Origin: Eledone cirrhosa
Lineage: Eukaryota
Reading direction: 5' to 3'
Assembly: GCA_964016885.1 (NCBI GenBank)
Contig: OZ024741.1
Span: 146,568,001 to 146,632,000 of the forward strand
Length of the DNA: 64,000 bases
Shown here piece by piece: positions 43,258 through 62,683 of the stretch. The notes under the pieces were generated by a model that saw only the letters and a list, made by a program, of their open reading frames with translations, searched no databases and was not told the DNA's origin. The position numbers were made by a program, and so were the translations under genes. The number at the start of each line of letters is the position of its first letter. The first letter of the stretch is position 1.

Positions 43258-43563
43258 TATATTAATAAAAGATCAGAGGCCATATTCAGTTGATTCAGGC
43301 ATATTTAAAACTCCATTATACATATTTCACTGATTTTTCCAAATGTTAATGGTTTCTTAGGAATTTTCAATAATTGATAGCCTTCAGTGAAATATGTATA
43401 ACACAGTTTTAAATAAACCTGAATATGGCCTCCAATCTTTTAATATATAATGCTCCATCTTGTACCATTTATGCAGATCGTTGAGCGCTTCTTTTTAACT
43501 GCTTCACAACTGACAGACCATGGTGTGATCCACACATCCCTGTTCTGTCAACCCCTTATTCTA
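43258..43563 (+). mobile_element. Fold-back non-autonomous PLE-like element with 3' tail
   Basis: Inverted arms 43258-43333 / 43385-43449 including the hammerhead 3' half GAAATATGTA; tail with TTGAGCGCT (43481-43489); TA flanks. Confidence 0.7.
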
Positions 43564-43574
43564 ATATATATAAA

Positions 43575-44080
43575 AGGTGCAGGGTGATCAAAGTTGGTGG
43601 AAGCTAGGGAGTAGGAAGACCTGGGATGAAGTGATAAAAGCTGACTTTGCTCAATTGCATTTAACAAAGGTAATGGCACAGGATAGTGTTCTGTGCCGTT
43701 ATGCAGTAATAAAGATGATCTGCCTTCCCATGTGCACAGGTTGAAGTATACATTCTAGTATGTACCACTTAACCCCAATCACCCCCACTCCATACACCTT
43801 CCACGCCCTAACACTCCAGCCTTCACACTACCCACTGTAAAGTGGTCATGTTGGTATCACTCAAAAAGTACCCAGTCCACACTGTAAATGTGGTTGGCAC
43901 TAGGAAGGGTATCTAGCTATAAAACCAAGCCAGAAACAGTTCTGTATGAACAAGACATGGTCACCTGACCTGACGTGCCTCAAAAGGGACAACCTGTTTA
44001 ACCCATGTTAGCATGGGAAATAGGTGTTAAACGATGACAATGATGATGATGATGATGATGATGATGATGATGATGATGAT
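43575..44080 (+). mobile_element. RTE 3' fragment (older subfamily)
   Basis: GSRKTWDEVIK coding end, 3' UTR and long (GAT)n; homologous to 63100-63750 (-). Confidence 0.85.
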
Positions 44081-44389
44081 ATATATATAGTGAAAGAGTG
44101 AAGACTAACATGGTCAGCTGTACAAAAAGAGCTTTATTTACAGTATTAACCTACATGGGAATTCTCGCAAACTCGCTACCTAACTAAGGAAACCTCTTGT
44201 TGAGTCAAACAGCCATACATTAAAACTATCCAAAGTACAGAGTACTCACAACCTCTAACTGGATTACCTTAAACGATAACTTGTTATCCCATATATATAT
44301 ATATATATATGTGTTTTTTGTATATATATATATGTTTTTTCCCAAAGACAATATATATATATATATACAATATATATATATATATATTT

Positions 44390-44829
44390 ATTTGGGTTTG
44401 TTGGTTCACCACTTTTTAATCTCTACGTCTGTCCTTGCGGATATTGTTTGTCCTTGGGAAAAAACATATTTCGCGGCAATATCGAGCATGCCTGACAAGC
44501 CTGATTGATGCGTGACCTCAGCACTGACATTTCCATCTGATGGGATGGTAGTAGTACATTAAAGGCTTGTGCCCCGACACCAGATGGTAGTATCTAGACC
44601 TAATAATCAGCACCTGAGGGCGGTCGACGCAGCTAGAAGCTGCTAAATTGCTGGCCGCCCTCCTGTCTCTGATTTAAACACCATGGATTTTTATTTGTTA
44701 TTCCTTCATTGTATTTTGAATTACCTGATGATGTCACTGGATTCATACTGAACCCAGTCATTGAAATGATCATAGTATAATAAACCTTTCAAGGATTTAC
44801 ACCGGTACATGCCTCCTGTTATTTTGTAA
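44390..44829 (+). mobile_element. Hammerhead-containing non-autonomous element in (TA)n
   Basis: GC-rich hairpin GAGGGCGGTC...GGCCGCCCTC, hammerhead, AATAAA, TA flanks. Confidence 0.7.
44722..44777 (+). ncRNA. Minimal type I hammerhead ribozyme
   Basis: TAC-CTGATGA-[stem II ACTGGATTCA/TGAACCCAGT]-GAAA-TGATCA-TA-GTA; palindromic helix III ATGATCAT. Confidence 0.75.
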
Positions 44830-45999
44830 TATATATATATGACCTTGTTTTTTAATGTCTATCATTAGAAATATAGTAACAAAAGGGTTAATGTAGATAC
44901 TTTTCATTTTGTGTATAAACTGGGCTATTAAGTGTCATTTTATCAAGGATACATTTCAGCATTGACAACAGGATACAAACTATCAAACAGTTTGCTGGTT
45001 ATCCAGTCAGTATTTTGACTTAGACATTGGAAGCACATATCAATAGTAGTCATGGTCTGCAAATCATTCTTATTGAAAATCTAATTAACCATTTCAGTAA
45101 CAACCCACTTAAGACTACCCATGATTCTATGATATAAAATCTCATTTAAAATTTTCTATATTTAAACTAAAAGCTTCCTTCATGTTTTATGTAATAACTT
45201 TTATTAAATTATGTTCCAAACACTAGTTTAATAATGAGAAAGTTAGATATTTTACGAAATCCCTCTTACTTCTTGATTATTTTCAAAATTATTAGCAATA
45301 TAATAATGATAATAATGCTAACAACAACAACAATAATAATAATAATTTTATAATTATAATCATATAATAATGATAATAATGATAATAATAATATAATAAC
45401 AATAATGATAATAATGGTGGTGGTGGTGGTGATAAACACTTGGTGGTTGATCTCCATTACTTCTGATGATGAGTGTTCCAGTTGTTTTATCTACAGACAC
45501 ATGTAGCTGAGTGTGTGACTAGGTTGGCCTATTGAATCATAGGCACAACTCATTTTTTTTCAGTTGAGTGGACTGGAGAAACATGGAATAAAGTGTCTTG
45601 ATCAAAGAGACGATCTATCACCAGAAATCAAACTCATGATTATATGACTGAAAACCAAACACTCCAACCACTAACCTGTGCCTCTTCACAGTAAATATTA
45701 ACAAACATGTAAACATATCTCATTCTGCTTTGAAAGGATTAAGTTGCTGTTAGAAAACTTACAAGGAAAAATATATTTAAAATATATCTTAAAGTTCAAA
45801 CTAGCATGTGGCAACTAGTGGCATATAGCAAAATGGAAATACCACTTGAAAAATAAAGAAATTAGGAGGAAAATATATTGTAAGAAACCAAAAGAAATAA
45901 GAAACAAAAATATTTTAAAGAATTCATTTTGATAATATTGACAATTAGTTCCTTTATAATGAGTGATTTTTTAACTTCAAAATACCAAATGATCAATAC

Positions 46000-46403
46000 T
46001 ACCCCCTACCCAACTACTCCAACCTTCATCAACATCATTATATCAACATCATTATATCATCATCAACACTACCATCACTACCAACATCATCAACATCACA
46101 ACCACCTCTATCAATACTACCAATACTACCACCACCAATATCATCACAATTACTACCATTACCACCACCAACATCATCATCACCACCACAACAACACTGC
46201 TACTACCTACAACATCACCATTACTATCACCCCCACTTTCATCAACATCTACCACAATTACCAACATCACCATCACTATCACCACTACTAATATCATTAC
46301 TGACATATCCACTCCCAGCAACACAATAACTATTACTGCTAACTTCATCATCACTATGACAAGCACCACTACCACTGCTTTTAACACCATCACCATCATC
46401 ACT
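46000..46403. repeat. Degenerate (CAY/AAC/TAC)n trinucleotide low-complexity tract
   Basis: Interspersed CAT/CAC/CAA/TAC triplets; a similar (AAT/GAT)n tract lies at 45295-45432. Confidence 0.9.
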
Positions 46404-60965: not shown

Positions 60966-60969
60966 TTAC

Positions 60970-61252
60970 TCACACCGGGTTATGTGTTGTTTCCTTGAGC
61001 AAGGCACTTTATTTCATATTGTTCCAGTTTAATCAGCTGTAGAAATGAGATGATATGGACTGGGGTCCATATCATTCCATTGCAAAGTGGTCGTGGAGGT
61101 GCCATGACAAAAAAGCACCCAGCACTCACTGTAAATAAGGTTGTTGTTAGGAAGGGCATCCAGCTGTAGAAATCAAGCCAGAATCAGTTCCCGTCCCTCC
61201 CTTGCAAGCAGGGAAAAAGTGGACGTAAAAATGAAATGATGATGAATGATGA
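60970..61252 (+). mobile_element. SINE family B, 5'-truncated
   Basis: Matches 11895-12153 and 59690-59950. Confidence 0.9.
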
Positions 61253-61384
61253 TACACACACACACACACACATACACACACACACACACACACACACACA
61301 CACACACACACACACACACACACACACATATGTCCAACCCATGCAAACATGGAAAACTGGATGTAAAACGATGATGATGTGTGT

Positions 61385-62468
61385 ATAATTTTATGCCTCA
61401 AATGCAAATTATGGGTACATAAGAGATGTGGGATCACAGGTAAGCTAACTAAGACCGTTTTATATGTGGCTAATGCTCAGGTTTAGTAAGTAGCAAGAGC
61501 CAACTAGATGCTAACTCCTTCAACTGCCCAGATGGTTCTATAGAAATAGTAGACACTTTCTGTTACCTGGGTGACAAAATCAGCTGTGGAGGAGGATGCT
61601 CTGAAAGTACAGTACCCAGAGTTAGAACAGGATGGAAAAAGTTCAGAGAGCTAATACCGCTGTTGGCCACAAGTGGTTTTTCACTAAAAGTGAAAGGCAG
61701 ATTATACAATGCTTGTATACAAACGGCAATATTACATGGTAGTGAGACCAGGGCGTTGTGTGCTGAAGACTTGTGTAAATTAGAAAGAGATGATGGTCGT
61801 GTAATAGTAATGTATGTGAACAGCAAAGCATAAACGAATTGAGAGAGAGACTAAGCATAAGAGGTATCAAATGTTGAGTTCTGGAGAGAAGATTGTGTTG
61901 GTATGGACATGTGATGCATATGAAGGACAACAGCTGTATAAAAAAGTACAGAGCGATCAAAATTGAGGGAAGCTACAGAGAGGGTAGACCAAGAAAAACC
62001 TGGGACGAGGTGATAAAAACTGACCTTGCTCACTTACACCTCTCTAAGACAATGTCACTGGATTGAGATCTTTGGCGCTATGCAGTTATACAGAAGACCC
62101 GCCTTCCCTTGCATACAAACTTAACTTTACAGTCAGTAGGCACCTCTTAAGCCAATATACACCCCACCCACACACACTACCACATCCTCTCATTTCCCTC
62201 CACTGTAAAGTGATCGTGTAGGTGACACAACAAAAAGCACCCAGTCCACACTGTAAAGTGGTCATGTAGGAGACATGGTAAAAAGGCTCCCAGTCCACAC
62301 TGTAAATGTGGTTGGTGTTAGGAAGGTCATCTAGCCATAGAAAACCTGCCAGGGACAGTTCTGTATGAGCAAGACACGGTCTCCTGACCAATCTCACCTC
62401 AAGTGGAACAAAACTGTCCAACCCATGCTAGCATGGAAGATGAATGTTAAACAATGATGATGATGATA
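61385..62468 (+). mobile_element. Decayed copy of the PHD-RTE family
   Basis: ILCLKCKLWVHKRCGITGKL, IEIVDTFCYLGDKIS, GRPRKTWDE; 3' UTR and GAT tail. Confidence 0.93.
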
Positions 62469-62486
62469 TATATATATATATATATA

Positions 62487-62683
62487 AGTAGGTTTCAAGT
62501 TGAGTTGGGGGCAACCACAGAAAAGAAGGTATTCAATACATGTGTTGAGTGAAGACAGGAGTTTATATAGAAAAGGCTTCTACAGGACCAGTACTATTTC
62601 ATTTGCATGAAAACATCATTCCTGATGATTTCATATCAATGAAACAGTACTAGTCCTATAGAACCCTTTTCTATATAAACTCA
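62487..62683 (-). mobile_element. Fold-back mini-element with hammerhead remnants and tail
   Basis: Arms 62559-62603 / 62638-62682; CTGATGA (62622) ... GAAACAGTA; tail with RC TTGAATACC; TA flanks. Confidence 0.7.

What the first reader, a model, noticed from the sequence alone, without database searches (positions are those of the whole stretch)
43258..62683. Radiation of sequence-diverse, (TA)n-targeted fold-back mini-elements carrying hammerhead ribozymes (retrozyme-like system)
Seen: at least nine short non-coding inserts (43258-43563, 44390-44829, 48398-48616, 48640-48820, 48833-49215, 57037-57532, 58430-58592, 60266-60512, 62487-62683) lie in or beside TA tracts. They share no obvious body sequence but overlap in architecture: inverted arms in seven, a type I hammerhead (intact core in five, remnants in two), often AATAAA, and an unpaired 3' tail. 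One (57037-57532) is clearly made of the terminal repeat of the neighbouring RT/GIY-YIG element. Established: Penelope-like elements carry minimal type I hammerheads in their pseudo-LTRs, often have inverted 5' pLTRs, and non-autonomous retrozymes exist. Inference: these are many independent non-autonomous lineages mobilised by PLE proteins, whose self-cleaved RNAs would be long hairpins. This density and diversity may be undescribed and is easily missed or mislabelled as MITEs.
Basis: partly seen in the sequence, partly recalled or inferred. Interest (0 to 1): 0.85.

Follow-up and report, generated by a model that had tools for sequence, protein, structure and literature searches.

The report
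Penelope retroelement end-stubs crowding TA repeats
The short inserts are real and carry real hammerhead ribozyme motifs, but they are most likely broken-off tail ends of many Penelope-type jumping genes that land in TA repeats, with the mirror-image half likely built anew at each landing, which is a known pattern rather than a new kind of RNA parasite.

Summary
Observation confirmed. Seven of nine inserts fold back. Five carry a complete type I hammerhead with a short, mostly palindromic stem III (8 hits window-wide versus 0.26 per shuffle). No two inserts share sequence. All adjoin (TA)n.

Reads laid on inserts 3-5 show multi-copy families (peaks hundreds to tens of thousands of times single-copy depth), with depth falling towards the 5' end. 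The window's own hairpin junctions sit at single-copy depth, and other copies join their arms at different, asymmetric points. Five window copies share the 3' end of the neighbouring RT/GIY-YIG element but differ in truncation, inversion and tail. The fold-back is therefore copy-specific, and it is predicted to bury the ribozyme. There are no head-to-tail tandem units, so these are not retrozymes.

Best reading: 5'-truncated pLTR(+tail) stubs of many (TA)n-targeting Penelope-like families in an octopus-like genome, a published pattern. An ORF-bearing parent is shown only for insert 6, so a short non-autonomous lineage (best candidate: insert 4) is not excluded. No RNA data were available.

Side lead: the parent protein has a telomerase-sized RT3-RT4 insertion with a C-terminal endonuclease.

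The parts
43258..43563 (+). Insert 1: old fold-back stub (arms 43256-43449, 69% self-identity) plus ~114-nt unpaired tail; weak U3-A8-type hammerhead candidate on the inverted arm
44390..44829 (+). Insert 2: non-coding 440-nt piece, no fold-back, complete hammerhead 44725-44774 (stem III UGAUCA), 55 nt from its 3' end; copy number not tested
48398..48616 (+). Insert 3: hairpin 48398-48505, then hammerhead 48529-48566, AATAAA, 3' end in TA; family multi-copy, junction single-copy; stem III UGUACA here versus UAUAUA in most other copies (compensatory)
48640..48820 (-). Insert 4: hammerhead 48793-48745, repeat end near 48715-48703, ~63-nt tail; by far the most abundant of the three families tested
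48833..49215 (+). Insert 5: head-to-head pair (arms 48827-49146) with a long-stem-II hammerhead in each arm, plus 69-nt tail; junction single-copy, other copies join elsewhere
54944..56497 (+). PLE1: 5'-truncated open frame (517 aa stop to stop), RT C-half + CX4CxxC linker + CCHH GIY-YIG endonuclease; 66% to an Octopus vulgaris protein
56498..57002 (+). PLE1 3' UTR / pseudo-LTR with hammerhead 56808-56842, ending in (TA)n without tail
57037..57532 (+). Insert 6: inverted + direct stubs of the PLE1 family joined head-to-head over a 3-nt overlap (about 57219-57221), plus 61-nt tail
58430..58592 (-). Insert 7: fold-back stub with only the 3' half of a hammerhead, joined directly to PLE2
58584..59668 (+). 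PLE2: decayed 5'-truncated relative (70% DNA identity to PLE1), frameshifted endonuclease region, degenerate hammerhead near 59410-59440, tail 59617-59667
60193..60225 (+). ~30-nt PLE1-family 3' end between TA tracts
60266..60512 (-). Insert 8: 32-nt inverted arms containing AATAAA, unpaired 93-nt side; no hammerhead found
62487..62683 (+). Insert 9: fold-back (62559-62682) whose junction falls at the hammerhead core (62622-62650); stem I incomplete
18943..19072 (+). PLE2-family 3' end without tail
19073..19097 (+). 25-nt PLE1-family 3' end
19124..19156 (+). 33-nt piece matching the insert-4 family end, without tail
19195..19333 (+). TA-bounded piece with hammerhead 3' half (19255) and a possible U3-A8-type 5' core read by eye; did not pass the scan
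20434..20560 (+). Miniature of insert 6: ~50-nt inverted arm + ~15-nt direct end + tail, different junction

Best explanation
The inserts are short, hammerhead-bearing 3' ends that sit in (TA)n tracts and belong to several unrelated repeat families; they are likely 5'-truncated insertion stubs of Penelope-like retrotransposons, and their fold-backs are likely built at each insertion. Steps: (1) A family's RT/GIY-YIG protein binds its own RNA and nicks (TA)n DNA (inferred from the C-terminal endonuclease and zinc-finger linker; published bias of such elements). (2) Reverse transcription starts at one of two sites near the repeat end, giving copies with or without a 50-115-nt tail (both forms shown here for the PLE1, PLE2 and insert-4 families; two start sites shown in vitro for a lizard element, PMC11167929). 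(3) Copying usually stops early, leaving 25-450-nt stubs (shown as a fixed 3' end with variable 5' end). (4) Often a second cDNA, primed on the other strand or by fold-back of the first, is joined head-to-head through a few shared bases or filler (variable asymmetric junctions shown; the two-strand priming is inferred). (5) TA tracts persist on both sides and take further insertions, so stubs of different families pile up (clustering shown; order inferred). The hammerhead is the parent's ordinary pseudo-LTR ribozyme, predicted to need a dimer or protein help, and predicted to be blocked in the long fold-backs.
For: Five window copies share the PLE1 3' end with 5' extents from 25 nt to 2 kb, two with an inverted arm and tail at different junctions; single-copy pieces have depth 7-10. 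The junction-spanning pieces of inserts 3 and 5 have depth 9.75 and 8.56. The family parts sum to 2,100-3,500 (insert 3), 12,000-30,000 at the peaks (insert 5 arms) against 226-520 at its apex, and ~300,000 falling to ~31,000 5'-wards (insert 4). RAD reads from two other samples give ~170, ~500-740 and ~2,100 against mostly 0-4 in the flanks. 9 of the 15 joints shown (36 found) link insert 5's left arm to the right arm or tail at different points, offsets -76 to +154, some with filler; one opposite-strand joint for insert 3. Compensatory G-C to A-U change in stem III of family 3, each change in ~98% of depth. A relative from a public metagenome contig has ORF, hammerhead, ~60 nt, then (TA)n. 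The same architecture is published: PMC8557442 (5' truncation, inverted copy, tail, (TA)n), PMC3846280 (overlapping inverted pLTR, palindromic junctions), PMC4209133 (most min-hammerheads single or on opposite strands 100-700 bp apart).
Against: No ORF-bearing parent was found for inserts 1-5 and 7-9: the profile search found PLE coding sequence only at 54875-56542 and 58584-59181, and no genome was held. Two divergent contigs of the insert-4 family reach the same 5' boundary (48825-48827), and its 5'-most bin is still thousands of times single-copy depth. 7 of the 9 joints have sides under 30 nt, each rests on one contig per run, and X1 and X2 are one sample. Variable junctions could also come from later deletion of a hairpin centre. 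Insert 3's inverted arm does not start at the family 3' end, which the two-cDNA model does not explain without a later loss or self-priming. Summed contig depth is not a copy number. Inserts 1, 2, 7, 8, 9 were not covered by the read test.
Confidence: 0.75

Rival explanations
1. Some families (insert 4 first, insert 2 next) are short non-autonomous elements of fixed length: monomeric hammerhead-bearing parasites copied in trans by Penelope proteins. Fold-backs would still be insertion by-products.
For: No parent ORF in the window. Insert 4 is extremely abundant and two divergent contigs end at its 5' TA boundary. Insert 2 has ~330 nt of non-coding body upstream of the hammerhead. Trans-mobilisation by pLTRs and non-autonomous PLE families are published (PMC3846280, PMC8557442 passages).
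Against: Tenfold depth decline inside insert 4 and a 33-nt stub of it show heavy truncation. The one family that could be traced has an ORF. Contigs often break at TA runs, so a shared end there is weak. O. vulgaris has 31 recently active Penelope-like families (PMC13282606, Table 1), enough to supply many parents.
Confidence: 0.2
2. The inserts are retrozyme-like lineages whose hairpin RNA is the replicating unit, cut by the hammerhead and circularised.
For: Intact hammerheads in five inserts and a compensatory change in one; animal retrozymes derive from PLE pLTRs (10.64898/2026.07.22.740005).
Against: No head-to-tail hammerhead units among 35 tandem-repeat rows. Junctions are single-copy. 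Core unpaired probability 0.00 in insert 5 and 0.10-0.11 in insert 6, against 0.42 and 0.68 for the direct arm alone. Insert 9's junction cuts its own ribozyme.
Confidence: 0.03
3. They are TA-inserting MITEs or fold-back DNA transposons, with hammerheads by chance.
For: Inverted arms and TA flanks; true TA-flanked MITE-like elements occur in the window (11763-11846, 25680-25812).
Against: One-sided tails, asymmetric variable junctions, a 5' truncation gradient, identity of insert 6 to a retroelement 3' end, and hammerheads far above chance.
Confidence: 0.02

Closest known systems
5'-truncated and inverted pLTR insertions with 'tail' of endonuclease-bearing Penelope-like elements (PMC3846280; PMC8557442; PMC11167929)
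   Same: Fixed 3' end, variable 5' truncation, head-to-head inverted copy with short overlap, optional one-sided tail, microsatellite targets
   Different: Here most stubs hold no coding sequence at all, tails run 50-115 nt (30-40 nt in those papers), and eight or more families crowd 20 kb
Minimal type I hammerheads of metazoan PLEs (PMC4209133)
   Same: Extra base after A9 in most, short stem I, short mostly palindromic stem III, mostly single or on opposite strands, high diversity within a genome, U3-A8 variant possible
   Different: Insert 5 has a 55-61-nt stem II; neither octopus repeat paper checked mentions hammerheads
Animal non-LTR retrozymes (PMC7229834; bioRxiv 10.64898/2026.07.22.740005)
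   Same: Short, non-coding, type I hammerhead, PLE-derived
   Different: Those are head-to-tail repeats of 150-450 bp expressed as circular RNA; none of the nine is in tandem
Nematis / Neptune / Hydra clades of C-terminal EN+ PLEs (PMC8557442)
   Same: C-terminal GIY-YIG; CX2-5CxxC linker and CCHH as in Neptune and Nematis; short linker as in Nematis; (TA)n target and 3' hammerhead as in Hydra
   Different: Relatives read DKS and KDHK, and the RT3-to-RT4 distance is 132-135 aa against about 62-65 in the Neptune and Nematis rows of that paper's Fig. S1 (my count by eye); CCHH present, unlike Hydra

Membership tests
EN+ Penelope-like element (PLE1, PLE2) | Single ORF with RT followed by GIY-YIG endonuclease | tested here: met
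   RVT_1 E=1.7e-4, below Pfam cut-off; VY...YIGET motif in the translation; Atlas look-alike clusters with RVT_1/GIY-YIG; 142 relatives at E<=1e-10
EN+ Penelope-like element insertions | Fixed 3' end with variable 5' truncation | tested here: met
   PLE1 family, 5 window copies; depth gradients of inserts 3-5
EN+ Penelope-like element insertions | Optional inverted 5' copy and one-sided tail | tested here: met
EN+ Penelope-like element insertions | Type I hammerhead in the pseudo-LTR | tested here: met
   motif only, cleavage not tested
EN+ Penelope-like element insertions | Each stub family traceable to an ORF-bearing parent | tested here: inconclusive
   Met for insert 6; no parent in the window for 8 of 9; no genome held
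Neptune / Nematis clades | CX2-5CxxC linker plus CCHH in the endonuclease | tested here: met
   C373, C378, C381, C400 invariant in 16 sequences, H443 and H448 nearly so; short linker like the Nematis rows
Neptune / Nematis clades | DKG-type motif and no insertion between RT3 and RT4 | tested here: not met
   TDKS in 16 of 17 scorable relatives; distance 132-135 aa in 29 of 120 proteins with both motifs
Neptune / Nematis clades | Placement in the RT tree | not testable with these tools
   No named reference proteins were available as stored sequences
Hydra clade | No CCHH; CxCX5C linker; DKT | tested here: not met
Naiad clade | N-terminal endonuclease, no canonical hammerhead | tested here: not met
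   Endonuclease is C-terminal in PLE1; hammerhead present
Animal non-LTR retrozymes | Head-to-tail repeats with a hammerhead in each unit | tested here: not met
   0 of 9 inserts in tandem; elsewhere in the genome not testable
Animal non-LTR retrozymes | Type I hammerhead, non-coding unit of 150-450 bp | tested here: met
   5 of 9 complete motifs; no PLE coding match in the inserts
Animal non-LTR retrozymes | Abundant linear monomer and circular RNA | not testable with these tools
   No RNA run listed
MITE / fold-back DNA transposon | Family-fixed symmetric terminal inverted repeats and fixed length | tested here: not met
   Variable asymmetric junctions and one-sided tails for inserts 3, 5, 6; no arms in 4; not tested for 1, 7, 8, 9
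MITE / fold-back DNA transposon | Target-site duplication | not testable with these tools
   Flanks are TA repeats and no empty site was seen

The most novel reading that the evidence does not exclude
Octopus TA tracts are shared landing pads for a swarm of hammerhead-bearing families, of which at least one (insert 4, thousands of copies) is a fixed-length monomeric non-autonomous parasite, a ribozyme-carrying SINE of Penelope elements; and the drivers belong to an unnamed marine-invertebrate Penelope lineage that pairs a C-terminal endonuclease with a telomerase-sized insertion in the RT fingers.
Probability: 0.22. Interest if true: 0.55.

Novelty: new member of a known kind. Interest (0 to 1): 0.3.

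Why it matters
As read here it is mainly an annotation point: palindromic TA-flanked pieces in octopus genomes can be Penelope stubs rather than MITEs or SINEs. The O. vulgaris annotation lists 65 recently active MITE families with 65 insertions and 893 unclassified SINE families (PMC13282606, Table 1); that some of these are such stubs is my inference, untested. The many copy-specific junctions are a ready dataset for the open question of how PLEs make inverted repeats and tails. If a fixed-length family or the insertion-bearing RT lineage is confirmed, it would add a new parasite class or a new link between PLE and telomerase RTs.

Tried and rejected
Whole-genome copy search: no genome held. 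RNA evidence: no RNA holder listed; this is no evidence either way. Rfam: no hammerhead family among 107 matches, which were mostly microRNA hairpin models on TA repeats and fold-backs; I do not take these as microRNAs. First hammerhead scan was too strict and found only one chance hit. Half-site scan (GAAA + palindrome) is not discriminating: 106 hits; of the 44 printed with two or more G/C, 20 lie within 200 nt of a TA tract, which covers 24% of the window, so half-sites in inserts 7, 19255 and 54742 are leads only. Search for coding remnants in the inserts with 120 relatives and their profile: none. Solved-structure search with the family profile gave only distant RT hits. No structure model was obtained, so the RT3-RT4 insertion is not shown to be an IFD fold. 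Earlier-findings look-ups by place, sequence and one word set were blank. Hydra-1_Obim hammerhead matches none of the inserts by eye beyond a similar stem III in insert 4. Rejected: assembly artefact for inserts 3 and 5; hairpin RNA as the replicating unit; MITE.
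Full report
Setting. The window is AT-rich, repeat-dense animal DNA. The best named protein relatives of the ORF at 54944-56497 are from Octopus vulgaris (66%) and O. 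bimaculoides (56%), so I call it octopus-like. No whole genome was held.

Observation. Seven of nine inserts fold back. Five of nine carry a complete type I hammerhead; insert 9 has a core lacking the 5' strand of stem I, insert 1 a weak variant, insert 7 a 3' half, insert 8 none. The relaxed scan gave 8 CUGAnGA-type hits in the window against 0.26 per shuffle in 50 shuffles; 7 of the 8 lie in the flagged inserts or the PLE1 repeat. None of the 36 insert pairs beat 100 shuffles at p<=0.02.

The neighbours. 54944-56497 is a 5'-truncated Penelope-like ORF: C-terminal half of RT, CX4CxxC linker, CCHH GIY-YIG endonuclease. A decayed second element lies at 58584-59668. Both have a hammerhead (degenerate in the second) about 160-180 nt before a 3' end in (TA)n. 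One of two relatives found in metagenome contigs extends far enough to check, and it shows ORF, hammerhead, about 60 nt, (TA)n.

In-window test. The PLE1 3' end occurs five times: in PLE1, in insert 6, and at 20434-20560, 19073-19097 and 60193-60225. All end at the same point; their 5' extents differ; two have an inverted arm plus tail, joined at different places over about three shared bases. The PLE2 end occurs with a tail (59668) and without (18943-19072). The insert-4 end has a 33-nt tailless copy at 19124-19156.

Read test. One call was allowed and covered inserts 3, 4 and 5 only (48340-49420), with two contig sets of one sample and two RAD read sets of other samples. About 3,600 contigs per set aligned, 88-89% of them under 99% identical. 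Single-copy pieces have depth 7-10. Summed depth peaks at about 3,500 on insert 3, 30,000 on insert 5 and 330,000 on insert 4. The tool warns this is no copy number; allowing up to 31-fold overcount from overlapping contigs (my assumption), the families hold at least about ten, a hundred and a thousand copies. The contigs spanning the window's junctions of inserts 3 and 5 have depth 9.75 and 8.56 with 0 and 1 differences, so these junctions are single-copy and real. Depth at the insert-5 apex is 226-520. Nine of the 15 joints shown (21 more not shown) link the left arm to the right arm or tail at different points; offsets from symmetry run from -76 to +154 and several carry filler. Seven of the nine have short sides (under 30 nt) and are individually weak. 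In RAD reads the reverse complement of the tail appears before the left arm (loose end at 48837), so the tail can sit on either side. In family 3 two stem-III positions differ from the window copy in about 98% of depth, exchanging a G-C for an A-U pair. Against the stub reading: two divergent insert-4 contigs end at the same 5' TA boundary, and 1,110 loose ends were not shown, so a fixed 5' end is not excluded.

Ribozyme access. Predicted unpaired probability of the core is 0.00 in insert 5 and 0.10-0.11 in insert 6, against 0.42 and 0.68 for the direct arm alone; 0.23 in insert 9; 0.43-0.68 in inserts 2-4 (the insert-9 row used wrong coordinates and was redone). A long fold-back would therefore block cleavage rather than result from it. 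No head-to-tail hammerhead unit is among the 35 tandem-repeat rows for 43000-63000.

Mechanism. Shown: multi-copy families, fixed 3' ends, variable 5' ends, optional tails, copy-specific junctions, TA flanks. Inferred: nicking of (TA)n by the element's endonuclease, two start sites for reverse transcription, priming on both strands or fold-back priming, joining by microhomology, repeated use of the same TA tracts. Untested: cleavage, expression, and the parents of eight inserts.

Literature seen. PMC8557442: passages, sections 11, 12, 15, supplement parts 2, 54, 57 and searches; it describes truncation, inverted copies, tails and (TA)n bias, and lists Naiad and Hydra families from Octopus. PMC4209133: first two of four parts; most minimal hammerheads occur singly or on opposite strands 100-700 bp apart and cleave weakly. 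PMC11167929: first two of four parts; both strands are cut and extended, two RT start sites bound the tail, and the ribozyme is protein-assisted and dispensable in vitro. PMC3846280, PMC7229834, PMC8969392, PMC8967140: passages. bioRxiv 10.64898/2026.07.22.740005: first of five parts and passages, no supplements. PMC13282606: first of three parts and passages; no mention of hammerhead or ribozyme in the main text; supplements not read and may list these families. Four searches returned no paper on hammerhead stubs in octopus TA tracts; Repbase and most subscription journals are not covered.

Earlier notes of this scan (after my read test) reach similar readings in other genomes; they are unchecked and not counted as support.

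Side lead. Relatives of the PLE1 protein occur in octopus, a jellyfish and a sea cucumber. They read DKS (16 of 17 scorable) and have 132-135 aa between RT3 and RT4 (29 of 120 scorable). By my count from Fig. S1 of PMC8557442 that distance is about 62-65 in Neptune and Nematis, about 86 in a Naiad and 120-155 in telomerases. That paper's abstract says canonical PLEs lack the insertion-in-fingers domain. No tree or structure was obtained, so this is a lead.

Verdict. Real, well observed, and best explained by known Penelope insertion behaviour. New member of a known kind; interest 0.3.

Noticed in passing
window 54944-56497 and relatives P0001, P0005 (alignments A2, A3): C-terminal-endonuclease Penelope lineage with DKS and a 132-135-aa RT3-RT4 segment, about twice the Neptune/Nematis length and telomerase-sized; found in octopus, jellyfish and sea cucumber; clade unplaced.
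   Followed up: partly
window 18929-19372: A second TA cluster with four stubs in a row: PLE2 end, PLE1 end, insert-4-family end and a piece with a possible U3-A8 hammerhead.
   Followed up: partly
window 20434-20560: Miniature inverted PLE1-family stub with tail; the inverted arm is longer than the direct part.
   Followed up: yes
window 54684-54790: TA-adjacent GC-richer piece with a hammerhead-like 3' half on the minus strand (54742); no 5' core seen.
   Followed up: no
window 11763-11846 and 25680-25812: Two TA-flanked elements with short symmetric terminal repeats that look like true MITEs (mariner-like by recall), unlike the flagged inserts.
   Followed up: no
window 8802-10442 (minus strand): Open 546-aa RT frame with a PHD-finger insertion, RTE-like by recall; decayed relatives at 61388-62478 and elsewhere.
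   Followed up: partly
window 7421-7892: Old 470-nt palindrome (70% self-identity), no hammerhead found, not TA-flanked.
   Followed up: no
window 46404-46987 and 57531-57881: Local tandem duplications (295-nt period at 94%; ~105-nt match at 86%) without hammerheads.
   Followed up: no
window 48640-48714 and 49147-49215: The tails of inserts 4 and 5 both begin with a similar short motif followed by a small stem-loop (by eye; not significant in the pairwise test).
   Followed up: no
L001 1760-1861: After the TA tract that ends the element, the contig continues with what looks like the start of another Penelope ORF (GLNF-type motif).
   Followed up: no
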